Assembly (NCBI GenBank): GCA_043228905.1
Contig: JBHGNT010000005.1
Location: 18,848,001 to 18,912,000 of the forward strand
Reading direction: 5' to 3'
Source: Azolla caroliniana
Lineage: Eukaryota; Plantae; Polypodiophyta
DNA length: 64,000 nt
Under the pieces are notes generated by a model, which was given only the letters and a program-made list of their open reading frames with translations, was not told the origin of the DNA and ran no database searches. Each line of letters opens with the position of its first letter. The first letter of the stretch is position 1. The translations under genes and the position numbers were made by a program. Shown here piece after piece: positions 34,610-64,000 of the stretch.

Positions 34610-37118
34610 CGAAGACATCATGTTAATTTTTATTCCATGATCTATCAAAGAAATATAAGGAATTTGTTGCTCCGCAATTTTTGTAGGCGCCTCTATTGTT
34701 GCTTGAGCCCAATGGTTCTTTGTATAATGACTCCTATCCCCTTCATGAATTGCAATATTATTTATCTTCTTTACACTTGCATCATTGATGGTGTCACGAT
34801 CTAGATCTTGGAGTGATGCTGAACACACTCTTGTAACTTCTTCCGTGACGTGTTTTAAATCTGTCATGTCTTCTGTGTCCGAAGCAAGCTAGAAAGCTGG
34901 GTTTGTCTTCCCTTTTACTTTATCAAGGAGCATCCTTTTCCATCTCTCTTCTCTCTTGTTCTTGTGTCTCATGCCTTTTTGCCAGACTAACCTACTCAGC
35001 TCTTTTTCGCTTCTCTTCCACCATCTTGTGCATTCACTTGGGCGAATGCTAATAGTGCGTCTACTAGATCATTCCATCCAGTGAAGTGTCGTATTTCATC
35101 TCCTGCCCTTTTTAATTCATCCACTCGAACCTTTCCTTTTCTTGCATACTCCATCACATCCTACCAAAAGTCAGATCCACCATATGAGTCTTCTACACGC
35201 AACCCTAAGGTTGTCACGGATTGTATCACTTGAGTCGTTTCTCTCTCGACATCTTCCATTAGCTTTTTCATTCCACCTTTCCCGAAGTTGAGCTGGATTG
35301 GTTGTTGAGTCTTTGTCGAGTGAATCTTTCCATCTTGATAGTAGATTTTATCATGATTAAGAGAATCCCTATGTTCTTGACAGTCTTTCTTTTGGTGGTC
35401 GACACTATCAGACCACATACACCTTCGGACCATTCCACCTCCTTGCCTTGATGAAGTCGAGATTTGTCCCGATTCTAGCTTCGTCACTTTGATCGACAAG
35501 TCTTTCATGCCTTTCACCAATTCATGCAAGAGTGAATCTTCTATTTTCTTCTCTCCCGAGTCGTTCCCCGTTTCGTCTCCCTTCTTCTCCGGCAGCTCCA
35601 TAAACCATAACTTTCTTTTACAAAAATGGGTGCAAGCCCTTTTCACCTCCTCCCAATCTTCGGTAAGTCCACTAGGACTATTCTGATCTTCCAGAAGCAT
35701 TCCCATGTCTTTCCTGTCTTTAATATTAGTAGCTTGTAGAAACAATATTACTTTATCTAGCATTATTATATTTCTATCCCTAACATTTAATTGCTCAAAT
35801 CTTTCTAAAAACTCTTTTAACACTTCCAAAACACTTAAATGTTTATTAGACTCTACCCAATCCATGAAAGCTCGCCTTGTCATCCTTGACATATCGTTGA
35901 GGTTGTATTCATTCAGTAATGCTCTTTCGAAAGTTGCCCATGTCTGATGCTCCCTCTGTAGCTCCTGGATCCTTTGTTGTAGCCCAATCGCAGCGACTCG
36001 ACTAAAGCTATTAATTTTGGCAGCTTCGTCAACACTACGTTTAAGCATTTCTTCATTGTAAATCTTCAGATATCTTGTTAAATTTATACCTTCGAAGATT
36101 CCTACTCATGCAAGAATATTGTCGATGGCTTTGTCGATGCTTGCCATCATCCCTTGCTATCGCATCATTTGTTCCATCATCGTACACATAAGCCTCATTT
36201 GCTCCTCCATTTTGCCTTGATGCCGCCTTCACGTCGGGTTCACCAAATGTGTCGGGGTAGTTGTGGTTCGTGCGGCGAAGTCGCAGGGACTAAGGTTAAA
36301 GGGAGTTGACGAAACTTTTATAAGGCTTTGCGCACAAATGTTAGGAAGATTAAGGATAAGAAGAATAAGAGTTTAAAGTAATGTGTGTGAGAGAGATGAG
36401 CATAGATAAAAGATAAAGAGAATGTATGATTTAAGAAGAAAGAGTATAAGATATGAACATGATTTATATTAAGAAAACAAGTTTTTACCAACATTACAAT
36501 GCTTTATAACAAGATGAACCCTTTCTCTACCGACTCTTGATTTGAACCCTTGACTCGAACTTAGAAACACGAGCCTCTTCAGCAACAAGCTAACTTGTTT
36601 ATTTTATTAATTATGTTCTAACTTTCTCTTGATTGCCTTTTTATTTTCCTTTACCCTCTTTTTATAAATATTGCCATGCATATGGTAATGTGTAGGAGCA
36701 TGGCATGCATGTGATGCATGAGTTACATGTGATGCATGATCGTCATTTGGTGCACATGCATTGCATGTGATGCATGATAGCCATCATGCTCATTTGAGCT
36801 CCCATGTATGAAAAATATATGGGATAAGTATAATGATGGATATAATCCTAAAACAAATAGCCTAGCTTAGTGGTGTATGCTTTGTGCTTGATATACAAGG
36901 TTATGGGTTCAAGTCCCTCTATTTTACTTAATACAATATTTAAGTTTATTCTTATATAGTGAAGCATATTCTTGACAACTTTTTTAAAAACAAATAGCCT
37001 ACCCTAGTGGTATATATATTGTGCTTGGTTTATAAGGATGTGGGTTCAAGTGTTTGAAATATTACTAAATTCAATATTTAAATTTATTTTTATATCATGA
37101 AGCAAATCCTTCACGACA
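34610..37118 (-). mobile_element. 5' part of a tRNA-Trp-primed gypsy (LTR 36250-37118, PBS 36228-36245, degraded gag-PR)
   Basis: TGTCGTGAAG LTR start, PBS TGGTGAACCCGACGTGAA, gag ORF 35161..36048 homologous to 47856..49980. Confidence 0.85.
36863..37053 (+). promoter_or_regulatory. Two tandem tRNA-like Pol III A/B-box cassettes inside a gypsy LTR
   Basis: TAGCTTAGTGG followed by GGTTCAAGTCC 43 nt later; a degenerate copy lies 137 bp downstream. Confidence 0.6.
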
Positions 37119-38237
37119 CCGGTCCTTTCCTCCAGCTCCTTCTAACATCCTCCACCTAGCTTGCGCTCCTCGTCTAGTCTGTTTCTGCTTCCCACGACCC
37201 GTCCGGTTCTGTGCACCTTGACCTCCTTGGTCAGCTTGTCTACTCAGCAAGCCAATCTTAGCTCCTTCGTTGCTATGACTCTGGTGCTTGTTGACCCATC
37301 AGTTCCTCTGTGCCGGTGTCAACTTCCGCTGCTTTCTCGTCCGCTTGGCCTTTAGTTGATCCGGCTCTTCTGAAACCACTTCCTCTGATTCGTTCCAGGT
37401 CTTATCGAAGTTGGTAGTCTCCAACTCGCCTTCCATTTTTAGGCCCTTCACCATATCGGACCACGTCCGGGTCTTGGCCTTTTTTCGGTCGGCTCTATCC
37501 TTCTTGACTCTATCGCCGTTGCCGCTTGCTCTAACTTGTTCGGATGTGCCGACTCCTTCGGTCGGCTCGGCCTCCTATTTTTGCTCGTCTCCTCCCTTGG
37601 TTCTTTCTTCCTCTCCGGCTCCTTGTCTGCTGCCATCCGTTCTCCCCCTGAAGTGTGGCACGTCGAGATGCTATAGACCCAACATTTCGGAAAAGTGCTA
37701 CAATTTGTCCGATTTGAGAGGCTTGGTGAAGATGTCGGCAGCCTGTCGATCCATACGAAGATACCGAAGTTCAACTTCACCGCTCAGGACCCGCTCACGG
37801 ACAAAGTGATAATGCACCTCTATGTGCTTTGTCCGAGCATGGAATACAGGGCTCTTGGCGAGTTGTATGCTACTTATGTTGTCGTAGTAGATCAAGATCG
37901 GGGTCGGCACCTCGATCTGGAGGTCTCGCAGCAGTCGCCGAAGCTAGATGGCTTCACATGTGGCAATGGTAGCACCACGGTACTCGGCCTTAGTGCTTGA
38001 TAGAGCCACTATTGGCTGCTTTTTGCTGCTCCATGCAATAGTTGCACTACCAAGAGAAAACATGTAACTAGAGGTCGATTGACGATCCGATGCATCACCA
38101 ACCTAGTCAGCATCGGTATAACCGACTAGCTTCCCAGTTATACCATGTCGGTATAACAATCCTCGGTCCTTCGTGCCACTCACATATCGCAATAGTCGAT
38201 GCATGCATTGAAGGTGATCCACTGTCGGCTTCTGCAT

Positions 38238-38657
38238 TGTTGAGAGACAAGCTCAACATCGGCCGGATCGGTTGAGCAAGCCGAGGACCTGATCGGTTGG
38301 GACCGATCGGTTAGGCCGAACCAGTGTGTAATGAGAGGCCGTATCGGTGCGTAGACCGAAAGGCCGTTAGAAAGATATTCCTCGTAAGGAACAGTTTTGG
38401 GAGTAAGTGTCGAGGCTCATTTATGAGCACTCAAGTACTGTCAGTACTTGTGGCAACCCAACTGTCAAGGCTTGTATAAAAGTGCTCATTGAGCACATCC
38501 TATGTACAGATTGAATATTATTTTTGAATTAAGTTCTTGTGCTTACTCTCTCTCTCTCTCTCTCTCCTGTGCGTACTATGCAAACCTAAGATTTCCATTA
38601 AACCTGCGTTTTCTGTTGTTCGGTCTCCTATATTGCTTCCACACAACATTCTTTTCA
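38238..38657 (+). mobile_element. Solo LTR (relative of the host copia LTR) inserted in RT
   Basis: TG...CA, TSD TGCAT; removing it restores QFMQKPT. Confidence 0.9.
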
Positions 38658-41600
38658 TGCATAAACTGGTTGATCACCCCGACTGGATAACTGATGTTGG
38701 GTCGGGTGATCGTCAAGTATATAAGGCTTCTGACAATTTGTCGGAACCGTTTCTCATCGCAGGCCGGGCCGGAGTCAGGACGTAGCTTTAGGTTCAACAC
38801 ATAGTTTCTTTGTGAGAGCAATATGCCATCGGGGGTCCGGATCACCTTGATCCCAAGAAAATAATGAAGGTCCCCCAGGTCCTTCATTTCAAATGTGATT
38901 GACAACTGGGACTTCACTCTGCCGATTTCATCCAGTCTAGGTCCGGTGATGACTAAATCATCAACATATAGTATGATACAAACCGGACTGTCCGAACCTT
39001 TCCGGATGAACAATGACGAGTCGGACTTTGAGGCTACAAACCCCATCTTACGCAACCAGTGCGTGATTTTCACATTCCAAGCTCGAGGGGCTTGCTTCAG
39101 ACCGTAAAGCGACTTCTTGAGTCGGCATACTGCCGACTTGTTCATCTCTGATTGGAAACTGAGGGGTTGGATCATATAGCAACACATTCTTCACATCTGT
39201 TTGGTGAAGATGGCATCCCCTTGCCGCAACAACAGCCAGTACCACACGAACCGTCGTCATCTTCGCTATCGGAGCGAAGGTCTCGTCGTAGTCGATTTTG
39301 TGGGTTTGTGCGTATCCCTTTGCCACTAATTGGGCCTTCTATCGGTTGACTGAACCATCGGCATTGTACTTCACCTTATATACCCATTTGCAACCAATCG
39401 GTTTACACTGTTGGGGAGGGTCAACCACGTCCCATGTGTCGTTGGCATCAAGTGCCCGCATTTCTTCCTCCATAGCAGCACACCAATTTGCGTCTTTTGT
39501 TGCTTCTACATAGCTCTCCGGCTCACGCACTTCCACCACCTTAGTCATGTACGCATAGTGATGCGCCATGTACTCATTGTATCTGTACCTCTGGACGGGG
39601 TTCTTCTGGTGGATTGAGCGGCATAACTTTTCCTTAGCTGGTTTGAGGCCTTTCTTAGCCAGTTCGGACTTCCTTTCTGAAGATCCGCCTTCTTCCTTTC
39701 CTGGGTCAGATTCGCTCCGATCCAACCCTTCACTACTAGTATCATATTCCGGCATCTTCTTCTTCCCCTTATCTTTGCACGTGAATCATCTCCTCGGTTC
39801 CTTACGCGGGGAGAGCACGACAGAGTCTCCACTTCTCGCCGGTTCTTCATCCGACTGGTCATCCTGACTCAACCGCTCATACGGCCCACTTAGCCGGAAT
39901 GAGATCGGACTCTCATCTAGAGTACCGACACCTTCATCTTCTTCTTGAACCTCACCGGGTTCACTAGCCTCATCCTCCAGAATCGGGTCTTCATCGGGAG
40001 TTGGAGTCGGTAGGGAGTACCATGATGTCAACTCATCAAACTGGACCTCTCGACTTACTCGTACCTATTTAGTCCGGGGGTTATAACACTTATACCCCTT
40101 CTATTCATGCGAGTAGCCGACGAGTATGCACTTCTCTGATTTCGAATTCAGCTTCCTCCGCTGCTCATCTGGTACATGCACATATGTTATGCTACCGAAT
40201 ATCCGAAGGTGTCTCAAATCTGACTTCCGCCCGAAATACAGCTCATGTGCTGACACCTTGTCCCCGATTCGGTTTTGGATATAGATGGCCATCCGAACCG
40301 CCTCAGCCCAATAGAATTTGGGCATGCTCTTCTCCTTCAGCATTGCCCTTGCTGCGTCGACAATCGACCGATTCTTTCTTTCGGTCACACCATTTTGTTC
40401 TGGTGTATATCGGCAGCTGAATTCTCTCCAAATTCCTTTTTGTTGTAGATAACTGTTGAATTGGCCGAAAAAGTATTCTTTTCCGCCATCCAACCGCAAA
40501 CTCTTTATCTTCATCTTCGTTTCCTTTCGACTAAGCTTTGAAGGTTTCGGAAACAATCGAAGACTTCGCTTTTCTTCTCGATGAGGTAGTTCCACGTGTG
40601 TCGGTTGTAGTCGTTGATGAAGGAGACTACCAACTCTTGCCAAGACTAACGTTCTGTGCCAGCCCCCATACATCCGAATGGATTAGATCGAGCTTGTTAC
40701 GGCTCCGGTTTCGTTCGGTGGGGAATGGAAGCCAGTGTTGCTTCCTGAGTTGGCAGGCTTCACATATTTGGGCCATCAAGCCACTAAACTTTGGTAAACC
40801 GAACACAAATTGTTTTGATTGCAAATCTTGAAGCCTCCAGTAATTGACGTGGTCGATCCACATATGCCAGAGATCGATGTTCGATTCAATCTTCTATCCT
40901 TTGGCAAACATGGCGGTGCCGACGTCATTTGTGTTGAGGATGAACATCCTCCCTTCTCTACGCCCTTGCGCGATTATTCGGCCTTCTTCCTCAATGAAGC
41001 ACCCGAAGTGTGTAAACCGCACCTGCATTCCTTGGTCAATGATTTTTCCGACCGACACCAAGTTCTTTGTGATTGTCGGGACATGTAGAACATTCGTCAG
41101 CTTCCCCCTTTGTCCGACATAAGGGACTTCTTCGACATGCACAATCGGGTGAGGAGTGTCGCCTACGGTTTCAACAACTCCCGGTTGTTCCGGTTTCTCT
41201 AGAAATGAGAACCACTCTTCGTGGCTCGTCATGTGGTTTGACGCTCTGGAATCAACATACCACATTTCTTCCGATCCGGAAGTGGTCTTCTTCATCGAGA
41301 TCACCTTGTGCTTCATCACAAAGGTAGGCCCCTTTCTGATTTTCCCGGTTCCGGATTCTTCCGATCCTTCAGCGTAGTGCGAGCTTTGTTGATTCCCTTG
41401 TCCGGCCTTGCCAGATCTAGATTAATCCGAATCGGCACGCTTCTTCCAGCACTTGCTCTCTCTATGACCTTTCTTGCCACAATACTAGCATTTTGTGTCG
41501 ATTTTTTATTGTTGGTTTCCGGCTCTGACTTGACTCCCCTTGCTTGTGGAGGGTCCGGAACTGTTTTCGGCACCATCTCTGTGCCTTCAGTTCTGCTCTT

Positions 41601-42705
41601 GTCGGCCGCCTCCATTGCGTGCCGACCCACCTCGTCCTCCACGCCTACGACGCCAATCCGCCTCCATGAACAACATCTAGTTATCCGATTGATTGGTCCT
41701 CGACCCGCTCGCGTGGTTTTCTTTGACCATCAACATTGATTGTAAGTCGAAGAAGGACGGTGGCTTCTCCCGGGTGCAAATTGTCGTCCGGATTGGCCCG
41801 TACCGTTGTGCAAGACCACCAAGACATATCTGGACCATCTCGTCTTCTTCCACCGTTACGTTGATGGATCCGAGTGCATCGCAGATCGCCGTAATCTTAG
41901 TGGTGTAGTTCGTAACCGACATATCTCTTTGCCAGATGTTGTTCAGCTCTTGCCGGAGCTACAACTTACGGGTTGTGGTACTTGCAGCGAAAATCTTCCG
42001 TAGATTTTCCCAGAACTCCTTTGGCATTTTTGCGTCCTTGATGTAGCCGAGCATCTAACCGTGCACATCGGACGCGAGGCAATACAATATGCGGCTCGCT
42101 CCTTGCTCCCATGCCGGGAAGTCTTTGTGTGCCGACTCCGATGCTACCTCATTGGTTCCTTCCACATAGCTCCAATATCCATGCCCCAATAGGTACTAGT
42201 GCCTTTTATATGACCAAGATGCATAGTTATTCCGGTCAAGCTTTTCTATGGGAAGCGAACTTACCATACCTCTATCCATCTCGATTCTCTATTGTTCTTC
42301 ACCGGGTGTTAGGGTTTGTCTTCGGAAGCATTTGTCGGTTGCAGAGGAGTCTCAACCCTCGTGCTCTGATACCATGTAAAAGTTAGTGTGCGGAAGCTTG
42401 ACAAAACCGGTTTAGCTGGGCAGCAACAGAGAATAAAACACAGGTTCAATGGAAGCTTGAGAGTATTTAGCATACACGGGAGAGACTGAGAGAGCAGAAC
42501 ATAAACTCTATTAAAAAATAACACTATGTATTTTCTTCTATTTTTTTCATATACAACATGCTAAACAACATTATTTATACAAGTCCTCAAAAGGACTGAC
42601 AGAAGTACTATGTACTTCAATGCTCATACGAGCAGTTGACACTAACTACGAGGACTCTGACTACCTGGTAGTCTAGGAGTATAGGCTACTACTAACCTTC
42701 CGGTT

Positions 42706-43054: not shown

Positions 43055-43140
<86 letters not shown>

Positions 43141-43422: not shown

Positions 43423-44362
43423 CGGTTCACATTTGAATCCGGCTCTCCGATCCGACTCTGGCTTGTTCAGCCGATCCGGATACGGTTGATCTTGCTCGCT
43501 CAACACACCTCAAGCTCTTATACCAGTTTCTGGAGAATGGATTGTAGATGAACGAGAAAGATCTGTTGAAAATATACACAATGCGGAAACAGAAAACAAC
43601 AAAATAGATAGGGAATGCACAATAGACAGTATTTACGTTGTCGAGGTATTCCTCGCGGATGCGTGGAATGGGGCGGGACCTCGGGGGTCTTGTACCGAAG
43701 AGCAAGAGAGAAAGGAGAAGGGAGGGGACCCACTACGTGCTAGCGTAGATTCACAGGGACACGGCCCTTCGATACAAAGACGCGAGTGGGACGCAGACAC
43801 CGAGGGACACGAATGTATGTAAATATATATATTAACAAACAAACAACAAGAAGCACGAAGTCTGTTACAACCGAACAGGCCGGCGAATAGATGCCGATGC
43901 CTGTTCGTAAACGCACAGAAAGGAAAGAGTAGGTTGGAGGTGCTGCCGGAAGCACTCGGGCATTCCTCAGAGCAGCGCGAGCCTCCCGAAACCTACACAG
44001 CAAGAAGCTACGGAGTTTGCGAGCCAGAGAGAGAGAGAAGCCTTCGCCCACAAACCGACAGCACTTCGTCCTCGACTCTCTGCGATGCCTTCCTCTTCCT
44101 CGTCTCCCTCCTTTTATAGGCAAGAAGGGAGCCGTTTCCTATTAACTTCCTACCTACCGAATCTACCTACCTCGGATCTTCCATGTCCCTAATTCTCTCT
44201 TATGTACAACATAAGGCGTACGTGCATGAAGAGCCGGGTCCTATGCTTCGGCGCACCGATTCCGCTCGTGGACGGTTTTCTTCACGACATCCGCCCCCAC
44301 CTAACCGCGCATCCACCGGCATGCGCCAAATTGAGTTGGGACAGAGAAAACCGGTCCAACCT

Positions 44363-47300
44363 TCATTCCCCGCCCGTCGGTTCTTCCTCGGTTTCGGATC
44401 GTTCGTCGTCCCGGTCCAGGTTATCCGGATCCGGCTCGTCGTCGTGACGCTTCTTGAACGCTTTGATCCGCTTCCTAGCTACCGGTATCGCCATTCTCGT
44501 GCCGTCGAGTTCCGCCAGATGGTACGTCCCGTTGTCGTTGGCGCTTTGTACCACGTAAGGCCCGAATCACCTTCTTGCGAACTTCCGTGTCGCTCGGTGC
44601 TGGTTGTCGAGGCTGCTGTCGTAGACTAGCACCCAGTCGCCTTCCTCGATCTTCTCCGATCGGAGCCGGTGCGTTCGGTCGAACCGGGCTTTGTTCCTCA
44701 TCCTTGCATCCCGAAGCTTTCCCGCAGCCTGCTCCACGTCTTCCGGCCTTCGCTCGAGCTGACGTATGCGCGCCGCCAATAGTTCCTCCCGGCTCATCTC
44801 GTCTCTCCAATCCACGGTTGCCCATGAGAAGACTGTACGTTCCATCGGCATGATCGGCTTCTGCCCAAACATGAGCTCTGCCGGCATGAATCCGGTTACC
44901 GAACTGTGCGTAGTTCGGTCAGCCCATAATGCGTAAGGCAGCAGCCGCGGCCAGTTCCCGACTTGACCCCCGCATGTCCGAACTAATGCCTTGACGATCG
45001 GTCCGTGTCTGCGCTCCACCTTTACATTTGCCTCCGGATTGTACGCAGTGGTAAGCGAGAGCTTGACTCCTAACCGATCGAACAGCTCCTCGGCCTCTTC
45101 GGCGTCCAACTCCCCGCGATCAGCCACGATCTTCCTGACGCACCCGTACCGGCATATCACATCCTCGAGCAGGAACCGACATACGGCTGCAGTCGTTTTG
45201 TTCTGAAGGGCCCAGCCTTCCACCTGGTTCGTCAGATCTTCCCGAGCTAGGACCAGGTACCGCATCTGTCCTACTCCCATCGGCATCGTCACCAGATCTA
45301 CAATCCATTTGAAGTGGATGGTCGGAGGGTACGTAGGGTGAAGCTCGTCCCGATGTCGGACTATGGAGTGCATCTGACAGCTCTCGCAAGTTGTCATGAA
45401 CCGATGCACGTCCTGGTACAGTCCCGGCCACCAGTACTTCCCCTTTATCTTCTCGAACGTGGCCCACGTTCCATGGTGTCCAGCCCAAGGGCTGTCGTGG
45501 TAGGCCGTCAGCAGCTCCTCCTGTTCTTCCTTCATTGCCACCACCCGGAGCGGGACGCCGTTCCTCTTCTTCGGGTGCTTCCATAAGTATCCGTCCCAGA
45601 GAAAGAATCGGTATGCTTTCTTCCGGATCCGGTTGGTTTCGTCCCTCGTCCATGATGCATCCGGCGTCATTGTCCTCAAAAATCCACCGATCTGGAGCCA
45701 CTCGCCGTCGTACTTGCTCTCATCGAAGTCGTTAAGTGCCGGAGTGCTCGCCCCATCGGTCGTCACGTACGCCGCCTCGAAGAAGTCCACGCCGACTTCT
45801 TCGTCCTCCGAAACCATGCCGCCCTCGTCATCAAACCTCGCCCTCGAAAGCATGTCGGCCATGGTGTTGTCCTTTCCGGAAATGTGCCGTATTTCCGGAT
45901 CCAGGGACTTGATGTACGCTATCCACCTGAGCATCGCCAGGTCCGGTGTCGCGCATCCGGAAACCATGCCGAGATTGGCAGGCAATCCGTCTCGATAATC
46001 ACTTCCGTCCCGATCAGGTAGTCTTTGTCGGCCTTTACTGCCGAAACGATACCCCAGAGTTCGCGTTTAACCTGGGCGTACCTTCGCTGCCGCTCACTGA
46101 GGACCTTCGCGCCGAATTGGATCGGGAACCGAATGCCGTCCCCGTCTTCTTGGTTGACGACCCATCCGATCCTGGTCGGACTCGTATCCACCGTTATGTA
46201 TACCGGGGTACCCTTCTCGTAGACAGCCTTCCGGAGCGCCGGTGCTGCCGCAAGAGCTTCCTTTAGCTTCCGGACCGACTCCGTGTGCTCGTCTCGCCAC
46301 TCGAATTTTCGCCCCCTTTTTAGCAACCCGTATAGCGGCTCCGCAACGTGGGCGTAATGCGGGATCCATATGTGGTAGAACGCGCATGCCCCCAGGAACC
46401 TCCGAACTTCCCTAACCGAGCTACAGTCGGTCGTCATCACGGAGATGGCTTCTACTTTTGCCGGAGACGGCTTCCGGCCATACGGTCCACACAAGTGTCC
46501 GACCACTAGGATTTCTGATTGCCCGAAGGCCGATTTCTCCCCGGAGAAGGTGAGCCTCGCATCCTCTAGCCTTTGTAGCACCTTCTCGCAGTCGTCGATG
46601 TGTGTTGCCACGAATCGCCGGCATCCGTCCGGCCCGACTGTCCCGTCCTTCTCTTCCACCGGGCACCCCTTTATCGGGATGTCGTCCAGAAATGGCATGG
46701 TGATGTCCGGGATGCAATCCCTCAGTACCTTGTTCATTGCATTCACCATGTGGGCCACCGAGTTGGTCCCTCCTTGTGGCAGGGTACACATTCGCACTAG
46801 GCCGAAGGGAGTTCGCATCGTCGTAATGTCTCTCCTCTCCACGGCTAGCTGGAACTGGTCGTACCCCGAGTACAGATCACCGACTGAGTAAATCGACCTT
46901 CCGGCGAAGGCCTCCGCGAACTCGTCTATGGTCGGTCTGATTCTTGCGTTCCGAATGGTCACTCTGTTGACCGGCTGCAGGTCCTAAATGAAGCGCAATG
47001 TTCCGTTTTTCTTTGGTACGGTAAACCATCGGTTCGAGTATGGCGCACTCGACGGTTCGAGAATACCCATATCGACTTTCTGCCTCAGTAGCTCCATCAA
47101 CTCCAGGATGTGAGCTCTTGGTACCGGAATCGGCTTGAGATTCCACGGCACATGTGGTACCGTGAATATCACCATCGGCTCCACGATTGTCGGGTCTACG
47201 CACCCGATCTCTTCCGGTGAGAATGCGAAGGCTTTCCCGTGCCTTCCGAGCATTCTCCGAAACCGGTCTTCCTCCGCCGGCAGTAGGAACCCGCCCCCAC

Positions 47301-47865
47301 CGATCTTGAGCTCCCGGGGCGTCCCGTCGGTGAAGGTGTGTCCTATGCAGGCCGGATCTCGTAAACTGGGGTCCGACGCAACCCCTCTGATTCGGGACTC
47401 GCTACCCTCCGGTAAGGGCGTTGCGACTGGCCTTACCTTCTGGTCTACAGTCTTGTACTTCGTGCTAACTCGGGCCGTCCGATCCGACCGGAGCCCCTGG
47501 CTGAAGTTCGCGATGACTTCGTACATCTCTTCGGAACATACCGGTATCGTCCGGTCTTCGTTAAGGTCTTCCCCGGCTACCTTCCTCAGCATCCCCAAGG
47601 TGTCGTCGAAGGAGACCGCCTCCACCGCCCCGCTGATTTCCTCGTCCGGGCCGAGAACTCCGCACGCTCGAAGTCGCTCCTCCATCCTTGCCCTTTCTCG
47701 GCCAATGATGCTGACTATCATACACCCTCCGTTGTTGGAGAAGCAGAATTTTCTACCTATCGCACAAGGTTTCTTCAGTTTCGGTTCTATCGTACAGCTG
47801 TGGGGTCTTTCCCGAGTGTCCGGATTGTCTCGGCCCCACGCCTTGGCAGCCCTCTCTAAAAATCC
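44363..47865 (-). pseudogene. Gypsy pol (RT, RNase H, integrase) with two nonsense codons and one frameshift
   Basis: DLYSGYDQ, LPQG, FLDD, TVDTS, HDSPWAGH..CESC, YNPEAN, FGPY; stops at 46984 and 44567, frameshift near 45980. Confidence 0.92.
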
Positions 47866-49982
47866 TCCCGGTTCTCGCCGCCGAGGGATTCGCGGTTTCG
47901 CTCGTGGTTCCGTCGCACTGTCAGAAATTGGACCGAATGGCGCCCGTCCTGGCTTTTGACCCTTGCGTAGGTCGAACCGTTGTCTAGCACCTTGGTCTCC
48001 ATCCGCGCTGCCGTGATGTATGGTTCCCCTAATATGACCGGGTGCGAGGATGTCTCCTGTACGAAGAAGTGTTGGTCAATCTCGACGTCGCCAATCTTGA
48101 CTCGCACGTTCGGGCAGGCCCCGTGCAGTTCCTCGGTGGTGCGCGTCGCAGCCCGTATCTTCCACCCGTGCTTGGTGTTGATCGGCCACTTTCCCTTCTT
48201 ATAGAAGTCCATGGACATCAGGTTTATTTCCGAACCGTGGTCCACCAATGCCACCACCAGTTCCTGAACATCTCCGATCTTTACCTGGGTCTCCGTGGTC
48301 GCTCGGGCCCAGTGCGGCCTTGAATAGTGGCTCTCCGCCCACTCATCTTCCAGCGCCATGTCGTCAATGTGCGTCATCCGCACCTCCACCGGTCTTTCCG
48401 GTTCCGTCTCCGTCGACAGCCTCTTCCGTTTCACCAGGTCCACAATGGAGTCATGGAACTCCTTCTTGGTGATCCCTAGCACCTCTCGCAATGACAGATC
48501 CACTTTGCTGTCGAGGATCCGTTCTTCTAGGACCTTTTGTAGGTCCGTAGTCCTTTCTATTTCCGTCCCCAGTCGGTATCCGCCCTTCCTGGGGTTATCT
48601 TGCGAGCTGGATCCACCGGCATCGTTCCGTCGTTGCCCGAATCGGGTCTCGTACCGTTGTGAGGGCCTGGTCGCTCCGGCTTTCCCCACTCGTTTGTCTT
48701 CTACCAGAGCCTCGTAGTTCCGGCAGGTGGCTTCTACGAAGGCCGTCTTCTCCTCGACCGGATCGCTCCACCCGGTTATTTCCCGGACCCGTCTCTCAGC
48801 GCGGTCCGTTTCATCTTTCCTTAGCCGCGCGCTGGCAAGACCTTCCAGCATTGCCGACCAGAATCCGTCTTTGCCCTCCTTTCGGGCCTCGCTGCCCCCG
48901 ACCCGAATGTCGGCCGACGCCGAGTAGTGGATGGCCTCCATGTGTCGGGCCGCTGCCTCTTCCATCAGTCTCTTCATTCCTCCTCGCCCGTCGTTTCGGT
49001 TTAGGGCCCTTCTGGTGTCGCCGGCGTGCACCCGGCCTTCCCACAGGTACACCACCCGGTTCCTCAACACTTCTGCGAAATCGCCGCAGTCCTTCCGGAT
49101 GTGGCCGACCTCGTCGCACCACATGCACCTGTTCCCTGCTACCGGCCGTCGGTCACGAGCCGGTTCGCCGCCTTCCCTTCGAGTCTGGGCGATCTGGTGA
49201 TCCTTTATCACCCGCGTCAACTCCTCCAGCGCTGCTCCTCCAGACGAGCCACTGACCATGCTGGTCGAAGCCAGACCGGTTTCGAGCCATTCCCGGGTTT
49301 CTTCCCTTCGCCCTTGCGGTGCCGGTTCAAGCCTCCTTGCTATGACAGAGCCCGCACCAGCCGCCCCGTTGTCAGCCCATTCTCGCCGTTTGTCGAAACG
49401 GCCACAGACTCTCTTAATCGCAGCCCAGTCGGTCGTCAGCCTGTCTTCGGTTTCTAGCAAGGAGCCGACTTGATCCCGGTCCCGCTCGTCCACCGACTTG
49501 ACGAACAGTAGGACCCGGCTCGTATCCAGAACGGTTCGGTCAAGCGCCGAAAGGCGCGCAAAGCGTTCTTCGAACTCCCGGAGGAGTGCCGACGCGTTTC
49601 TTCCCTTGCCGGGGGACTCCACCCACTCCATGAAGTCCCGTTTCGAGAGCCGGAGCGTGTCGTCCAGCCCGTATTTTTCTAGGAGTCGACCTTCGAACTC
49701 CTCCCAGGTACGGCTCTCCGCCCGCACCTCGAGCACCTCCGCATGGATGCTCGGCATCGCCACTCGAGGGAACCCGGCGAGACGCCTCTCTTCCGGAATG
49801 TCCCGCATCAGCATTTCTGCCCCGTAGGACGCCAAATACTTCGTGGCGTCCTTTCCGCTGAACCGGCCGATCGTACCGACGACCGCCTCAATGGCTCTGT
49901 CGAGGGCGTCGGTGCCCTCGCGTGTGCTCAATATCCGATCCACTGCCGAAGCCATGGCCTCCGCAAGATCCGACCCCTTCAT
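47856..49982 (-). CDS. Gypsy gag and aspartic protease
   Basis: CMWCDEVGHIRKDC knuckle and ALVDHGSEINLM protease; likely start just after the PBS rather than in the LTR. Confidence 0.88.
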   Translation of the reverse strand: MKGSDLAEAMASAVDRILSTREGTDALDRAIEAVVGTIGRFSGKDATKYLASYGAEMLMRDIPEERRLAGFPRVAMPSIHAEVLEVRAESRTWEEFEGRLLEKYGLDDTLRLSKRDFMEWVESPGKGRNASALLREFEERFARLSALDRTVLDTSRVLLFVKSVDERDRDQVGSLLETEDRLTTDWAAIKRVCGRFDKRREWADNGAAGAGSVIARRLEPAPQGRREETREWLETGLASTSMVSGSSGGAALEELTRVIKDHQIAQTRREGGEPARDRRPVAGNRCMWCDEVGHIRKDCGDFAEVLRNRVVYLWEGRVHAGDTRRALNRNDGRGGMKRLMEEAAARHMEAIHYSASADIRVGGSEARKEGKDGFWSAMLEGLASARLRKDETDRAERRVREITGWSDPVEEKTAFVEATCRNYEALVEDKRVGKAGATRPSQRYETRFGQRRNDAGGSSSQDNPRKGGYRLGTEIERTTDLQKVLEERILDSKVDLSLREVLGITKKEFHDSIVDLVKRKRLSTETEPERPVEVRMTHIDDMALEDEWAESHYSRPHWARATTETQVKIGDVQELVVALVDHGSEINLMSMDFYKKGKWPINTKHGWKIRAATRTTEELHGACPNVRVKIGDVEIDQHFFVQETSSHPVILGEPYITAARMETKVLDNGSTYARVKSQDGRHSVQFLTVRRNHERNRESLGGENREDF

Positions 49983-50004
49983 CTTCTGCTCTTCTGCCGC
50001 CTCC

Positions 50005-50022
50005 TTCACGTCGGGTTCACCA
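50005..50022 (-). other. 18-nt primer binding site complementary to plant tRNA-Trp
   Basis: TGGTGAACCCGACGTGAA complements TTCACGTCGGGTTCACCA, the plant tRNA-Trp 3' end as I recall it. The same PBS occurs at 36228 and 62199. Confidence 0.85.
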
Positions 50023-51480
50023 AGATGTCGAGGTATTCCTCGCGGATGCGTGGAATGGGGCGGGACCTCGGGGGTCTTGTACCGAAGAGCAAGAGAGAAA
50101 GGAGAAGGGAGGGGACCCACTACGTGCGAGCGTAGATTCACAGGGACACGGCCCTTCGATACAAAGACGCGAGTGGGACGCAGACATCGAGGGACACGAA
50201 TGTATGTAAATATATATATTAACAAACAAACAACAAGAAGCACGAAGTCTGTTACAACCGAACAGGCCGGCGAATAGATGCCGATGCTTGTTCGTAAACG
50301 CACAGAAAGGAAAGAGTAGGTTGGAGGTGCTGCCGGAAGCACTCGGGCATTCCTCAGAGCAGCGCGAGCCTCCCGAAACCTGCACAGCAAGAAGCTACGG
50401 AGTTTGTGAGCCAGAGAGAGAGAGAAGCCTTCGCCCACAAACCGACAACACTTCGTCCTCGACTCTCCACGATGCCTTCCTCTTCCTCGTCTCCCTCCTT
50501 TTATAGGCAAGAAGGGAGCCGTTTCCTATTAACTTCCTACCTACCGAATCTACCTACCTCGGATCTTCCATGTCCCTAATTCTCTCTCATGTACAACATA
50601 AGGCGTACGTGCATGAAGAGTCGGTTCCTATGCTCCGGCGCACCGATTCCGCTCGTGGACGGTTTTCTTCACGACAACGTGGAAACCCTAAAATGGGAAA
50701 AACCACGGGGCAGCAAGTTTTCACAATGAACAGAGATACAAGCAAAAGATTTACAAATCTCTGAGAATTAGAGTGTACCCACTTAGGATTTTGACAAGTT
50801 CCACGAAACTTTACCTCTCTTTTCGCACACTCTCGTGTCTCTTCCTACTCTCTATTTCTTCCTCGTTTCTACACTCAACCACAAAAGCTCTATACATAGT
50901 GCAACACATTCATAATGGTTGCCCTAGTGTATTTATACTCATAGACAATATGGGCTATTTACAAATGTAGTTGTTATTAGTATTATATAATGTGTATAAA
51001 TAATTAATCGGCCCGACTAGTCGGCCTTGTCTTTGACCATCCAGTTGACCCAACTTGTCAACCTTGTCTTCATTTGGAGCATTTATCAATGTAAATGACT
51101 ATCATAGTCAGCTCTCAATCCCCTCCAAGAACTAGTTGACGACCCTGTCAACTAGCTGGTCGGATCCGACTGACCATCATGTATTTGGCTCATTGATTCG
51201 ACTACCGACTTCTTCCTAGACTTCGACTGTCGACTTCTCCCATAGGAGGGAAAAATTCCTAACAATAAAATGGTTAGATAGAGTAGTAACGATTTTCTAT
51301 TCTTGACATAACTGTTCATGCGCCCTATAAAAAGGGACATGTAATCTTGTAAAAGTTTTATCGGTTGTATCGAGGCAGTCGTCTAATAGAATCTCTGTTT
51401 TCTTATATTCTCTATCTGTCTTCTAAGCAACTTTGTTATAAACTGTGTATTGTAATTAATCTATCGGTTGTAGCGAGTCA

Positions 51481-51806: not shown

Positions 51807-51944
51807 GAGGGAAAAACGGAGAACTAAACACAGAGACACATGATGTTAACGTGGAAAACCCTAAATGGGAAAAAACCACGGGAGTCCGCAGACCCCAAAC
51901 AGGATCACTATATTTAGAAAAAGTACAAGAGACTCGCAGGCAAC

Positions 51945-55970: not shown

Positions 55971-55972
55971 CT

Positions 55973-56267
55973 TGTTGAGAATCAAGCTCAACTTGGTCTA
56001 GTGTGTGAACTCCCCTTGAGAGTGAATAGACACTCCAACGGTCAAGAGTCCCCATTAAGTCACCACTTTGTATTCTAGCATTTAGTATGAGTCATAGAAT
56101 CATATTCTATGACACATAAGTTATGAGCTTTCACATTCCCCATGCTCCATGAGTCTTGTAGTTAATGAAGAGAGAGGGTGACTATATAAATCACCATCCT
56201 CCCTCCTTGTAAAGGGTTGAGTCTTTCTCCTTTGTCAATATACTTTTACCTTGCATATTCTCTGTGT

Positions 56268-56319
<52 letters not shown>

Positions 56320-56625
56320 TACACACACACATAACTCACATCTCTTTTGCTTCACAAGAATCCATCTCTTGATTCTTTACATGGTATCAGAGCGATTTGG
56401 TAGCTCCATCTAGACCATTCGCCTCATCGTGATCGTGTGTTGCGCTTCACAAGAATCCATCTCTTGATTCTTTACATGGTATCAGAGCGATTTGGTAGCT
56501 CCATCTAGACCATTCGCCTCATCGTGATCGTGTGTTGCGCTTCACAAGAATCCATCTCTTGATTCTTTACATGGTATCAGAGCGATTTGGTAGCTCCATC
56601 TAGACCATTCGCCTCATCGTGATCG
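55973..56625 (+). mobile_element. LTR (55973-56381) followed by three tandem 95-bp LTR-end plus Met-PBS units
   Basis: TGTTGAG...CTTTACA; TGGTATCAGAGC at 56382, 56477 and 56572. Confidence 0.85.
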
Positions 56626-56629
56626 CCTC

Positions 56630-58910: not shown

Positions 58911-58949
58911 GTTCCCGAATAAACTATTCCTTTCACACTCTGGTTTGGA

Positions 58950-60043
58950 TCTCCTTAAGCCTTCTTGCCATCTGGTAACAGAACGGAGGAAGAGGACGTG
59001 GATAAGCGAGAGGCCGATTCGGCCAAGGACAAGGCAGACGTGGTCCGACCTATGACAACAACTCCCAATTCCGGCTGCAAAACGGAAGCCAACGAGGAAC
59101 CTTCACAAGAAGGGGGAGCTTCCCCGCCGACCCAAGCCGTCAAAACGCAACCGAATGCGGATATTGCGGAAAGATCGGCCACCACGAAGAAGAGTGCCGA
59201 AAGAAGATGTGTGAATCGGCTTCCACAAGCCGACAACTCACGAATTACGCGCACAATTCTGACTATGAAGAGTATAGCGAAATGTACGGGCACAACTCTG
59301 ATTACGAAGATCATGGCGGAATGTATGCACACAACTCCGATCGTGGCGGAATGTACGGGCACAACTCCGACTACGAAGATCGTAGTGGAATATATGCACA
59401 CAACTTCAACCGTGGCGGAATGTTCATGATGAAACATAGAGCAAACTCTATGTCGGCCACTACCTCAACCAGTGCCTCCGGTCCGGAAGACGTATGGTTC
59501 GTCGATTCTGGTGCCTCGAACCATATGACATCACATCAAGAATGGTTCCGAGAACTTCGAGCACCGGATCGACCTGGCTATGTCGAAACCGGAGATGACA
59601 CTACACATCCGATTCGGCACATCGGCAATGTTCCGTTCGGAAAAGAAGGTAAGCAAAATTACATTAAAAATGTCTTGCATGTATCGACCATTACGAAGAA
59701 TTTGGTCTCTGTTGGCCAAATTGTAGAGCAAGGGATGCAAGTTCGATTTAATCAAGGCGGTTGCTTCATCAAAAAAGAGGGCCGACTCATCACACGCGGA
59801 CGAAGAGAGGGCCAGATGTTCATTCTCGATTCCCACGAGATGAAATCCGCCATGTTCGCGAAAAACACGAAAGCCGACTCCGACATTGAGCTATGGCACA
59901 AGCGAATCGGCCACATCAATCTCAACAAACTCAAAGAAATGAAATCGAAAGGAGTCGTCATCGGACTCCTGACATTCAAAGAGAAGGAGATTGAAGGTGT
60001 ATGTGAAGCAACACCGACATCCATTCCCGAAAGAGCGGAACGT
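58950..60043 (+). pseudogene. Third fragment of the same copia clade (gag knuckle, protease, GAG-pre)
   Basis: CGYCGKIGHHEEEC, WFVDSGASNHMT, LWHKRIGH. Confidence 0.88.
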
Positions 60044-61124
60044 TGTCGTGAAGTTTCGCGTTCGCGTGTAGGAAGAGGCGGGACCACGGGGGTCTTGGAC
60101 CAAGGAGAGAGTGAGAGAGAGAGAGAGGCACAGAGATGCAAGCTCACAGGAAGAGATTAAGAGCAAGAAAACATGAATCCGGTTACTATAGTCAATAGCT
60201 TACAACTTGAATTGTTACAACCGGCAACCCGGTAATGGACCCTACACGGGGTCCTACTCACGCACACCGACGACAGCCACATGACTCGAAGAAACAAAAG
60301 GGGAAAGGGGAGAGAGAGACTCTGCTGGAAGCACACGGGCTGTCCATGAAGCAGAGGCAGCGAACTCCCGACACCCGTAGAGAACGACGATCGGAGGAGA
60401 GAGAGCTCGGCACTCGGTTCTGCAGCAGCACTTCGTCCTCGCCAATGTGCGATCCCTTTTCTCCCCTCTCCTCTCCTTAAATAGTTCTCAAAAGGGGGTG
60501 CCCTTTCTCCCTAGTCAAATCGCTTTATTCCTTGTCCCTTCTAACAGAGATACGCACAATCCCCTAATACATGTGTACTACTTAGTATTTACATCAACCG
60601 ATCCATTTATGAATCATGTACAAAATATCAAAATAGCAATTCATGCGCCCATCCGAGTAAGAGCCGATTCATGCGCCTTTTTCTCTGATTCCGCCTATGT
60701 CCGGTTTTCTTCACGACATCCACCCCCACCAAACCGTGCATCCACTAGCATGCGCCAAAGACGGGTAGATACCGAAGAAAACCGGCTTCACTCGTCGTTC
60801 TCCGATTCTCCGCCGGGCCCAAACTAATCGTCGTTGTCACTCCCGCTCGTAGGCTTCGGCTCGTCTTCGAACCGCTTCTTGAACGCTTTGATCCGCTTCC
60901 TGGCCACCGACACCGCTAACCGTGTCCCGTCGAGTTCTGCGAGGTGGTACGTGTCGTTGTCGTTCGCGCTCGTGACCGTGTAGGGCCCGAACCATCTCCT
61001 AGCGAACTTTCGCACCGCCTTGTGCTAATTGTCGAGGCTGTTGTCGTATACCAGGACCCAGTCGCCTTCATCGATCTTCTTTGGTCGCAACCGGTGCGAC
61101 TAGTTGAACCGGGTCTTGGTCCGT
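60044..61124 (-). mobile_element. 3' LTR (60044-60718) and integrase end of another gypsy of the Trp-primed clade
   Basis: TGTCGTGAAG...CTTCACGACA; RKFARRWFGPY..YHLAELDG homologous to 44363-44700. Confidence 0.88.
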
Positions 61125-64000
61125 TGTCGTGAAGATTTTCGGCAATAGTGTGAAAATCCCATAAAACGTACGAAATCGAGTATAAATCACATAATACAAT
61201 AATTGTGAAGATAACATTTTAAATAAATTTAATATCTAAGTACAAAATGATGGAGGTTTCGAATGCACTTTATTACACGAGAAACGGACAACTAAATATC
61301 AAGATATGAGGGTATAAAGTTTGTGAAAGGAAAAGAGAAAATTGTGAGATATCCCACATAGGCACGACAAATACGGCTCTCATCATATATAAGGTAGAGC
61401 AAAAGATGTTATCTTTGTGTCTATGTGTGGAGCATAGAAAGTTCAAGGTAACTTTAACTAATAGTGGAGGTGGGCTAGCTACTCGTAAAGGGTTTTGGCC
61501 AACCAAAACCGGACCGGCGATGCAGCCAGTGATCCGGCGGCATCCGACGGCAAACCGGTATCCGGCGCCGGTGAGACGACGGCATCCGACGAACCGGCGT
61601 CCGGTGACTAGATAAATAAATATGTAAATATATATACATATATACATATACAAGGAGGGCAAGTAAGGATTCGAACCTTGCACCTCCAAGTTAGGAGTCA
61701 ATTGGCTTACCATTAAGGCATGCCATTTAGTTGAATTTATATTTCTATCATTGTACTTTTACATGTAAATTCTCATACATGAGAGCTAAAATGAGTGACA
61801 TGGTTATCATGCACCACATGTAATACATAAGCGCCAAATGGCAAACATGCAATTTATGCATGTCTTGTACCCTCACATGCATCATATGCATGAGAGCATC
61901 TATAAAAGAAGGAAGGGGGAGGAGAAAAAAAACACGTTTTTTTTATTATGAAATTAAGAAGAGGAAATTCGTTATCAAATTGATCGTGTAACTTGTTTCT
62001 TAAATCTAAAGTTAAAAGTTCAATCAATCTCTTTGAATCGTGTAATCTCAACTTCTCTCTTTCCCAATCTATCTTAAGTACTTTCTTGCTAAAGCTTGTG
62101 CCAAAGCTTGTACCGACTTTGAATCCTTCCGGTCCAAAACCCCGGCGGTTCCGCCTCACGATCCGTGCGTAGTGACGGATCTTCACAACATAATTAAGTG
62201 GTGAACCCGACGTGAAAGAGGCGGTAGGAAGGATCACGTCGATATTAATACTTGGAGATGGCGTCCTCAAGCAACCAAGCGGGAGAGCTTGAAAGGATGA
62301 TGCTAATCGTCGAGCAAATGATGAGATCTCGAGACAACGACGCGAGCGTGGAGAAGGCTGTCGATCGTGTCATAGAGCTCGAGGGCCAATTCGATGGAAG
62401 GAACGTTACGAAGTTCCTTGATGCATATAGAAGGGAGATGAATCAGAGGGACGTGTCCGAGGCACGTCAAATCGCTTCAAGAGAGTTGTCGCCAACAACA
62501 TCCAAAGACGCGTCATCGAGCTTCAAAAAGGTAAGACAACATGGTCCGAGTTCGAGAAAACGATACTAGCGGAGTTCGTGACTGAAGACTCAACGAGGAT
62601 GACTCGACATGCCATGATGAAGTGGATAGAGAAGAAGAATAAGAAGATGAGGGTCTCGAGGGTGTACGACGAATTCGACCATATGTTTAGTCGTCTCCCC
62701 AAGTGTTGCTTGAAGAGGACAAGACTTTGTACTTCTTGAAGGCCGTGGACATAAAGGATAGACGGGAGTTGGGGACTCTTCTCGAAGATGATACCCAAGC
62801 AAATGGGCTCGTAGCGGACTGGATCGCGGTGAAGCGGGCATGCAATAGGCTCGACAAGGGTCGCCAATGGGTTGATGACACCGACTTGACGGGACCGACT
62901 ACCACGGAGGAAGCAAGACCGCCGAAAGTAGCTGAGCCGCTGAGACAAAGTAACGTGGAAGAAAAGAAGATTGATGACGACATCATTGAAGAGCTAGCGA
63001 AGAAGTTTGAGAAGGTCACGCTAGCCAACATGAATCATCGAGGCCCTAAAGGAAAAGAACCCTTTAGATGTGTGTGGTGCGATAGCATGGACCACATGAG
63101 AAGGGATTGTGCGAGCCTTCGAGAGGCGGTTCGACAAAATATCGTATACATAGAGGACAACATGATCTGCTCAAGCGAGACTAGAAGACCCCTACAGGTG
63201 AATTTCGGAAGAGGAGGAATGAAGAAATCTATGGAGGATGCCGATGCGATGCACTATGCTGCGTCGGCCGGAATAAGAGTCGGGAAAGACAAGACTGAAG
63301 CTGCTAGAGCAAGAGCAAAGTTTTGGACTTCCGTTCTCGAATATGAGAAGAAGGGAAAAGTCACATCGAACGAGGTAGAGCTTGCGGACCGAAGCGTGCA
63401 AAACATAACCGGGTGGTTGGATCCAGTGGACGACAACACCATACTCGCAGAGGTGATGTGCGACAACCACAAGGTGTTCGTCGAAGAAAAGAGAAAGAGA
63501 ATAGAAGAGCAAGGCCCATCAAAAAGACATAAAACAAGGAACGCGAAAAAGAAGGACGATGCGGAGACGAGTCGACCTTTACAAACGGAGGAACGAGAAT
63601 CAAGCCGAAAAGGGGAGCCGAGCATACGAGTTGAAGAAACAGTTCGGCCCGTGAAGGTTGGTGTCGAAGACCCCGCTCGGAGGACAAGGACTATACCTAC
63701 CTATAAGCTAAGGTCGGACATAGAGCAGACGACGGACCTAAAGAAGATTCTCGAAGAACGAGTTCTTGATAGCCACGTAACTTTGTCCTTGAGGGAATTG
63801 CTTGGCATTACGAAGAAGGAGTTCCATGACACGATCGTGGACCTTGTAAAGAGAAAGAGACAACAATCGGACGAGGAAGAAGAGAAGCCGCAAAAAGCAA
63901 AAACGAATGCCATAATGATGGCAAGAGATGAAGTCGATGAAGATATGGTGGACAGCCACTACACTCGACCTCATTGGGCACGAGCGACAACGGAGACGCC
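61125..64000 (+). mobile_element. Trp-primed gypsy 5' part: LTR 61125-62190, PBS 62199-62216, frameshifted gag (runs off window)
   Basis: TGTCGTGAAG...TTCACAACA; gag GQFDGRNVTKFL..CVWCDSMDH..YTRPHWARATTE. Confidence 0.9.
61658..61728 (-). promoter_or_regulatory. tRNA-like cassette (A box, perfect B box) inside a gypsy LTR
   Basis: Minus strand reads TGCCTTAATGG...AAGG-TTCGAAT-CCTT (T-arm); no proper acceptor stem. Confidence 0.65.

What the first reader, a model, noticed from the sequence alone, without database searches (positions are those of the whole stretch)
36850..61728. Outward-facing tRNA-derived Pol III cassettes in gypsy LTRs
Seen: A and B boxes at tRNA-like spacing (~43-44 nt) occur in the LTR at 36250-37118 (twice), the LTR at 61125-62190 (perfect GGTTCGAATCC) and both arms of the 18273 palindrome. 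They are always antisense, pointing to the LTR 5' end. I do not see them in the shorter LTRs at 43639 and 60044. Known: Cassandra TRIMs carry 5S Pol III promoters in their LTRs, and B boxes bind TFIIIC and can act as chromatin barriers. Inference: a tRNA-type analogue acting as insulator, antisense promoter or SINE progenitor.
Basis: partly seen in the sequence, partly recalled or inferred. Interest (0 to 1): 0.7.

Follow-up and report, generated by a model that had tools for sequence, protein, structure and literature searches.

The report
tRNA-derived promoter pads flanking LTR promoters
Several families of a plant jumping gene carry, at a fixed spot in their long terminal repeats, a decayed tRNA-like sequence that has kept its two RNA polymerase III promoter boxes, and these likely serve as landing pads for host factors that would keep the element's own promoter open, a role not yet tested.

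Summary
Mostly confirmed, with two corrections. A/B-box cassettes lie in the LTRs at 36250 (twice) and 61125, score above shuffles or match by homology, and are fixed family parts, not sporadic SINEs. The elements are Phygy-like (Trp PBS, NCGN target duplication). Among 32 complete LTRs (window plus metagenome contigs), 8 carry a cassette. The antisense cassette sits in U3, 133-238 bp upstream of the TATA box, collinear across families whose Gag is about 35% identical: box positions 79% identical, inter-box 41%. Correction 1: not always antisense; the 36250 family and others have a sense cassette downstream of the TATA box, so the cassettes face away from the promoter on both sides. Correction 2: the 18273 palindrome is a separate foldback (5-bp duplication) and its cassette is weak. 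Against function: within families boxes are not more conserved than inter-box (80% vs 78%), some copies decayed, most families lack it, and no expression or binding data exist. Closest known: Helenus TRIMs (sense, short, non-coding) and foamy-virus LTR Pol III cassettes. The scan noted antisense tRNA-like cassettes in retrotransposons of two other genomes, not in these LTRs.

The parts
36250..37118 (-). 5' LTR (869 bp) of a truncated Phygy-like gypsy element (family 36250)
   Evidence: Terminal motifs, CCGG flank and PBS; Gag homology at 36189-35023, no pol of its own found
36228..36245 (-). tRNA-Trp-type primer-binding site
   Evidence: Phygy uses tRNA-Trp in 81% (PMC6317226 supplement row)
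36856..36924 (+). Antisense U3 cassette, proximal copy: A box 36863-36873, B box 36906-36916, T4 run just behind
36993..37061 (+). Antisense U3 cassette, distal copy in a 137-bp tandem duplication: weakened A box 37000-37010, B box 37043-37053
36669..36844 (-). CATG-rich block between cassette and TATA box, homologous to that of the 61125 LTR
   Evidence: 77% over 113 bp here; 74-78% over about 185 bp in L067/L074
36659..36668 (-). Predicted TATA box of the 36250 LTR
   Evidence: motif and collinear alignment; start site not mapped
36538..36599 (-). Sense cassette downstream of the TATA box: decayed A box 36581-36592, B box 36538-36548
61125..62190 (+). 5' LTR (1066 bp) of a gag-bearing Phygy-like element (family 61125), inserted in another gypsy element
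   Evidence: multi-copy in 4 of 4 runs laid
61655..61727 (-). Antisense U3 cassette: A box 61710-61720 (one change private to this copy), B box 61667-61677, followed by a TA-rich tract
61741..61909 (+). CATG-rich block and predicted TATA box (61900-61909)
61980..62024 (+). Decayed remnant of the sense cassette
   Evidence: 11.6 bits with the sense profile, shuffled maximum 8.2
62199..62216 (+). tRNA-Trp-type primer-binding site
18273..19118 (.). Separate 846-bp foldback element, TG...CA ends, 5-bp target duplication; B-box-like sites at 18308-18318(-) and 19074-19084(+), A boxes poor
   Evidence: arms 82% complementary; empty site visible in the mirror arm of the host palindrome; no LTR homology
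43639..50676 (-). Complete Phygy-like element with short GC-rich LTRs (43639-44289, 50026-50676) and no cassette: internal negative control
   Evidence: LTRs 98% identical, ACGT duplication, gag-RT-RH-IN domains
60044..60718 (-). Short GC-rich 3' LTR without cassette: negative control

Best explanation
The long, AT-rich LTRs of several Phygy-like gypsy families carry tRNA-derived A/B-box modules at fixed places on one or both sides of the predicted Pol II core promoter, facing away from it, and these likely bind host TFIIIC (with or without TFIIIB and Pol III) so that the promoter would be held nucleosome-poor or bounded against spreading silencing. Shown: presence, position, orientation, family fixation, tandem duplication, box-like conservation between families. 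Inferred: capture of a tRNA gene or SINE head into U3 long ago, spread by LTR copying and U3 exchange, selection on the boxes. Untested: binding, transcription, and the direction of any effect on the LTR promoter.
For: Position: the A box lies 133-238 bp upstream of the TATA motif in 10 of 10 LTRs aligned, collinear from TATA through cassette, in families whose Gag is 33-43% identical. Pattern: between cassette types, box positions are 79% identical and inter-box 41% (26 pairs; shuffled 26%); single comparisons such as 13/17 vs 9/31 give p 0.002. Over 21 LTR cassettes G53, T54, T55, A58 are invariant, R57 21/21, C56 19/21, Y60 20/21, C61 16/21, position 59 varies and 62-73 are free, the profile of a TFIIIC B box. 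Within the 61125 family, three DNA runs (548, 880, 998 contigs) show variants at >=3% depth at 1 of 22 box sites, the degenerate R of the A box, vs 7 of 32 inter-box and 11 of 90 flank sites. The module is shared by LTRs with unrelated flanks (L002 vs window, 83% over 69 bp). It was duplicated in tandem in three families. No cloverleaf or shared RNA sequence is kept, which points to DNA binding, not an RNA product. TFIIIC binds A/B boxes in chromatin and tRNA genes lie in nucleosome-poor regions (PMC11346459, passages).
Against: Among six pairs recruited by LTR homology, boxes are 82/102 identical and inter-box 146/187 (p 0.38). The read-variant contrast is not significant (p 0.08 vs inter-box, 0.17 vs all non-box). 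The between-type contrast is partly circular, since cassettes were found by their boxes, and unrelated tRNA genes share 8-17 of 32 inter-box positions. 24 of 32 complete LTRs lack a cassette, including the five Gag rows of the well-supported sister clade of family 61125. L062 has both boxes broken, and the sense module is decayed in family 61125. The 21 cassettes come from about five families and are not independent. No binding, chromatin or stranded RNA data. DNA methylation impairs TFIIIC binding (PMC11346459, passage), so many copies may be unbound.
Confidence: 0.45

Rival explanations
1. Neutral relic: a tRNA pseudogene or SINE head was captured into U3 and is carried along with the neighbouring enhancer block; the boxes look conserved because they are how the cassettes were found.
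For: No box excess within families; decay in L062 and of the sense module; absence from 24 of 32 LTRs; tRNA pseudogenes lie next to such elements in L025 and L044; Kojima notes that 'not a few' Repbase LTRs hold part of a tRNA (PMC10886601).
Against: At the same position in deeply split families the boxes and the 43-nt spacing persist while inter-box falls to 41%; the two tandem copies in L078 share 14/17 box and 9/31 inter-box positions; T4 runs follow 16 of 21 cassettes within 40 nt vs 11.2 in shuffles (p 0.01, non-independent).
Confidence: 0.25
2. The cassettes are small Pol III genes whose 70-250 nt RNAs act on the element or the host, as the Pol III cassettes in foamy-virus LTRs do.
For: T4 enrichment behind the B box; type I cassettes can form a 9-bp helix round the B box, 94% paired with 2 compensatory pairs in 6 sequences; precedent in simian foamy virus U3 (PMC3993851, passages).
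Against: The helix is weak evidence (20 of 500 shuffles reach it) and type II shows no compensatory pair; RNA sequence is not conserved between types; the window's type I copy has no T4 for 169 nt.
Confidence: 0.13
3. In the genomic RNA the antisense U3 cassette is the complement of a tRNA and pairs with the D and T arms of the primer tRNA to aid initiation or strand transfer, as in Ty3; it could have arisen by reverse transcriptase reading through the primer.
For: Explains the antisense orientation and U3 location without Pol III; Ty3 U3 pairs with the T and D arms of its primer (PMC5371799, passages). A tRNA-like sequence in HIV-1 U3-R is recalled only; the paper was not held.
Against: Positions 59-73 match the primer's 3' end, read from the PBS, at only 2-8 of 15 in 23 cassettes; position 52 is G or A in 21 of 21 where the primer's A62 implies U; Y60 and C61 are kept though they fall inside the 18-nt PBS duplex. 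It does not explain the sense module. The full tRNA-Trp gene could not be obtained, so the D arm was not compared.
Confidence: 0.1
4. Helenus/Cassandra mechanism: Pol III transcribes the element's genomic RNA from the cassette.
For: A sense module lies downstream of the TATA box in several families.
Against: The main cassette is antisense; a T4 run follows the sense module 14-26 nt after the B-box start in 5 of 7 copies; the elements are kilobases long, encode Gag and have TATA motifs.
Confidence: 0.03

Closest known systems
Helenus (TRIMp3; Kojima 2024, PMC10886601; parts 1-4 of 6 and supplement passages read)
   Same: tRNA-derived sequence fixed in LTRs, conservation round boxes A and B, no functional tRNA, proposed SINE or tRNA capture
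   Different: Helenus are non-coding TRIMs of 311-1263 bp with the tRNA part in sense orientation in the two LTRs seen; here LTRs alone are 592-1150 bp, many elements carry gag, the main cassette is antisense in U3 and a Pol II TATA motif is kept. The one plant Helenus is from Selaginella with a 120-bp LTR and 5-bp TSD.
Cassandra TRIMs (as described in PMC10886601)
   Same: Pol III promoter inside plant LTRs
   Different: 5S-derived, sense, shown to transcribe the element itself; non-coding and short
Foamy-virus LTR Pol III miRNA cassettes (PMC3993851, passages)
   Same: A/B-box Pol III units in U3 of a coding LTR element, beside a Pol II promoter
   Different: They make hairpin miRNAs with shown expression; here no conserved hairpin product and no expression data
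Ty3 bipartite primer-binding site (PMC5371799, passages)
   Same: U3 sequence complementary to tRNA D and T arms in a gypsy element
   Different: Here the PBS is a full 18 nt and the cassette does not match the primer's 3' end
tDNA and ETC (extra-TFIIIC) chromatin elements (PMC11346459, passages)
   Same: A/B boxes acting through TFIIIC on local chromatin: the proposed mode of action
   Different: Described at host loci in yeast and animals; not shown inside plant LTRs in the searches run
Phygy clade of non-chromovirus Ty3/gypsy (PMC6317226, passages and supplement row)
   Same: Trp PBS, 4-bp NCGN target duplication, no chromodomain seen
   Different: Defined from Physcomitrella; no tRNA-like LTR module in the passages seen; RT tree against references not built

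Membership tests
Helenus / TRIMp3 | tRNA-derived sequence with A and B boxes in the LTR | tested here: met
Helenus / TRIMp3 | Short non-coding element (311-1263 bp in all) | tested here: not met
   LTRs of 592-1150 bp; gag in both window elements, gag plus the following pol-frame region in L032; 2.3-kb inner part in L078
Helenus / TRIMp3 | Cassette in sense orientation, able to transcribe the element | tested here: not met
   U3 cassette antisense; sense module mostly followed by a T4 run
Helenus / TRIMp3 | Pol III transcription | not testable with these tools
   no raw stranded RNA reads offered
Cassandra | 5S rRNA-derived LTR segment | tested here: not met
   no 5S match in Rfam scans
tRNA-derived SINE insertion | Own target-site duplication | tested here: not met
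   no flanking repeat beyond chance in 21 of 23 cassettes; the two exceptions are the tandem duplication and an AT-rich 8-mer
tRNA-derived SINE insertion | Dispersed copies outside LTRs | tested here: inconclusive
   none in 64 kb plus 225 kb chosen by PBS; the 20 of 170 loose ends shown look like other LTR subfamilies; no whole genome held
Functional tRNA gene | Cloverleaf | tested here: not met
   ARAGORN 0; best Rfam 16.3 bits vs 29; stems broken
Phygy | tRNA-Trp PBS and NCGN 4-bp TSD | tested here: met
Phygy | RT/IN phylogeny with reference Phygy elements | not tested
   no reference set on hand; only a Gag tree of fetched elements
TFIIIC-bound barrier element | TFIIIC occupancy and barrier or opening activity | not testable with these tools
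   needs ChIP and reporter assays
Ginger/GingerRoot (for the 18273 foldback) | 4-bp (Ginger1) or 6-bp (Ginger2, GingerRoot) TSD | tested here: not met
   5-bp duplication vs PMC6839031 passages

The most novel reading that the evidence does not exclude
Protein-coding plant LTR retrotransposons have captured tRNA promoters and keep them as a divergent pair round their own Pol II promoter, recruiting host TFIIIC as a built-in anti-silencing boundary, an alternative to the GC-rich short LTRs of sister families; every copy would then seed TFIIIC sites and chromatin boundaries through the host's repeat-rich regions.
Probability: 0.3. Interest if true: 0.75.

Novelty: new variant of a known kind. 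Interest (0 to 1): 0.5.

Why it matters
How LTR promoters stay usable inside silenced, repeat-rich chromatin is an open question. tRNA-derived boxes kept at a fixed distance on both sides of the TATA box, with cassette-less sister families as natural controls in the same genome, make one answer directly testable: co-option of TFIIIC. It would extend the TRIMp3 idea from short Pol III-driven elements to coding, Pol II-driven ones, and give plants a mobile source of TFIIIC sites. If neutral, it is an annotation note on one more source of tRNA-like repeats.

Tried and rejected
No whole genome is held, so copy counts and a genome-wide SINE search were not possible. ARAGORN at relaxed thresholds gave noise (431 calls in the window) and was dropped. 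Rfam on 20 loci found no tRNA. Two scans of viral contigs found nothing. The genome-contig scan gave 27 prokaryotic matches, none extending beyond the pattern with a score above 17.1 bits: treated as chance. No RNA holder listed; the one guessed-RNA run laid had 3 contigs and cannot show strand or expression. A first LTR-boundary rule mis-called several LTRs and was replaced. Loci with under 450 bases before the PBS or without an LTR-like end were left out of the LTR scan; 64 sequences were scanned, 32 complete. No plant tRNA-Trp gene could be fetched (three supplement files of PMC11700998 were unreadable and one was not searched), so the parent tRNA of each cassette is unassigned. A conserved upstream CAA motif was looked for by eye and is not constant. 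bioRxiv 10.1101/827881, PMC9033089, PMC13578239 and PMC9744471 (passages) had nothing on such cassettes. Ginger identity of the palindrome rejected on TSD length.
Full report
Setting. The window is a nest of copia and gypsy elements and foldbacks. Three gypsy elements have the same primer-binding site (62199+, 50022-, 36245-), which matches a tRNA-Trp 3' end as printed in a supplement of PMC10886601. The complete one (43639-50676) has an ACGT duplication. Trp PBS and NCGN duplication are the marks of the Phygy clade (PMC6317226, passages and one supplement row); I did not build an RT tree with references. The host is likely a seed-free plant; earlier notes on this genome say moss or fern, and I did not settle it. 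No whole genome is held.

Observation. B boxes with an A box 43 nt upstream lie at 36906, 37043 and 61677. On a generic A/B score of my own, built from recalled box consensus, 36906 and 61677 are the window's two best sites (27.7, 24.3); none of 8 shuffles reached 24, while three non-LTR sites with spacing of 50-54 scored 23.1-23.2. The 37043 copy scores 20.5 and rests on being the tandem twin. tRNA origin: Rfam's tRNA model aligns 36856-36924 end to end at 16.3 bits (gathering 29) with loops in register and stems broken; it gave nothing for the 61125 cassette or L029, but a profile of five tRNA-like genes found in the loci scores L040 at 17.0, L029 at 14.6 and the window copy at 9.5 bits against a shuffled maximum of 8.5. 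They are not working tRNAs. The short LTRs have no cassette.

Family survey. 64 LTR regions could be scanned, 32 delimited at both ends (27 loci, 5 window LTRs, two of them from one element). 7 of 32 exceed the 99th percentile of shuffles and L062 carries a decayed homologue; 24 of 32 have none. Partial LTRs add L029, L065, L032, L063 and the 3' LTR of L078. Cassette-bearing complete LTRs have 33-43% GC; 17 of the 24 without have 49-55%, but 7 lower-GC LTRs lack it too. On a Gag tree of 30 rows the cassette-bearing rows do not form one clade, and the five rows of the sister clade of family 61125 lack it: loss or U3 exchange.

Fixation. Contigs of four DNA runs cover the 61125 cassette at depths like its neighbours and bridge it to the downstream block. 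At finer grain, 548, 880 and 998 contigs lay on 155 bases; variants at >=3% depth fall on 1 of 22 box sites (the degenerate purine of the A box), 7 of 32 inter-box and 11 of 90 flank sites, leaving aside one A-box change private to the window copy (p 0.08 and 0.17). The loose ends shown (20 of 170) break at the A box and resemble other LTR subfamilies. No TSD flanks the cassettes and none was found outside LTRs in 64 kb plus 225 kb, a small and PBS-biased sample.

Anatomy. Three antisense types (I: 61125 family, L002; II: 36250 family, tandem; V: L078, tandem) sit at one place: aligned from the TATA motif, 10 LTRs are collinear through a CATG-rich block into the cassette, A box 133-238 bp from TATA. 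The block is 74-78% identical between families 61125 and 36250, whose Gag is 33-43% identical. A fourth type lies on the sense strand downstream of the TATA motif: 36538-36599 in the window, with both boxes in L067 and L074, tandem in L043, present in L032 and L063, decayed at 61980-62024. So the modules face away from the predicted Pol II promoter on both sides; 'always antisense' is wrong. TATA and U3/R limits are predicted from motifs.

Selection. Between types, box positions are 79% identical, inter-box 41%. Across 21 LTR cassettes the B box has the TFIIIC profile, with free position 59 and kept Y60/C61, and nothing downstream is conserved. A T4 run follows within 40 nt in 16 of 21 (shuffled 11.2). 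Against: the between-type contrast is partly circular, unrelated tRNA genes give a similar inter-box identity, the cassettes are not independent, and in six pairs recruited by homology boxes (82/102) are no better kept than inter-box (146/187; p 0.38). Structure is weakly supported for type I only.

The palindrome. 18273-19118 is an 846-bp foldback with a 5-bp duplication; the mirror arm of the older palindrome it landed in shows the empty site. It has no homology to the LTRs or loci, and its cassette is at the edge of chance. It should be kept apart.

Mechanism. Best reading (0.45): TFIIIC landing pads that shape chromatin at the LTR promoter; binding and effect are inferred from yeast and animal tDNA work (PMC11346459, passages), and a dampening effect on the neighbouring Pol II promoter, recalled from yeast, cannot be excluded. 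Rivals: neutral relic (0.25), small Pol III RNAs as in foamy-virus U3 (0.13; PMC3993851, passages), pairing with the primer tRNA as in Ty3 (0.10; PMC5371799, passages; weakened because the cassette's 3' part matches the primer at only 2-8 of 15 positions), Helenus-type transcription of the element (0.03).

Known and new. tRNA-derived LTR segments are published for Helenus TRIMs, and that paper says 'not a few' LTRs hold part of a tRNA (PMC10886601, parts 1-4 of 6 read; supplement passages). These elements work like Helenus only in carrying A/B boxes; they fail its size, coding and orientation features. Searches listed no paper on antisense or paired tRNA-derived boxes in coding plant LTRs; I saw listings only for most hits, subscription papers and Repbase entries are not covered. 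The scan's own notes hold two cases of antisense tRNA-like units in retrotransposons of other genomes, unchecked here, and none for these LTRs. Verdict: real, family-fixed, a new variant of a known kind, function open; interest 0.5.

Noticed in passing
window 18150-19849: Nested foldbacks: the 846-bp TG...CA palindrome sits inside an older palindrome, itself inside a 17103-24374 inverted pair that also holds a copia remnant and a further foldback (20342-21626). A fully palindromic element with LTR-like ends and a 5-bp duplication fits no Ginger class seen.
   Followed up: partly
window 24377-26872: 2.5-kb foldback with inner ~105-bp tandem repeats in both orientations; its end has a separate copy at 30799-30892.
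   Followed up: no
L044 1150-1224; L025 2244-2315 and 2614-2680: tRNA-Arg and tandem tRNA-iMet pseudogene-like copies lie a few hundred bases upstream of cassette-less Trp-PBS elements; L044 is 1 of 17 complete LTRs with host flank (14.5 kb in all). Possible insertion near tRNA genes, a route to capture.
   Followed up: partly
L078 1-2866: Non-autonomous Trp-PBS element with a 2.3-kb inner part, no Gag or Pol match, a Thr/Ser-rich frame, and two diverged antisense cassettes in its 3' LTR.
   Followed up: partly
window 36669-36844 and 61741-61899: CATG-rich block conserved at 74-78% between families with 33-43% Gag identity; resembles RY motifs bound by B3 factors (label recalled). Suggests a shared or exchanged enhancer.
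   Followed up: partly
L065, L002, L016, L038 LTRs: Mosaic LTRs: pieces of U3, cassette and U5 are shared in different combinations between families, pointing to frequent LTR recombination.
   Followed up: partly
window 8411-14193: Young copia element, LTRs 99.4% identical, with long gag and pol frames.
   Followed up: no
window 33370-34622: Chromovirus-like remnant with gag close to the integrase SH3-chromodomain end, apparently lacking most of pol.
   Followed up: no
window 61500-61610: GC-rich short repeats downstream of the antisense cassette vary in length between copies and could form hairpins in an antisense transcript.
   Followed up: no
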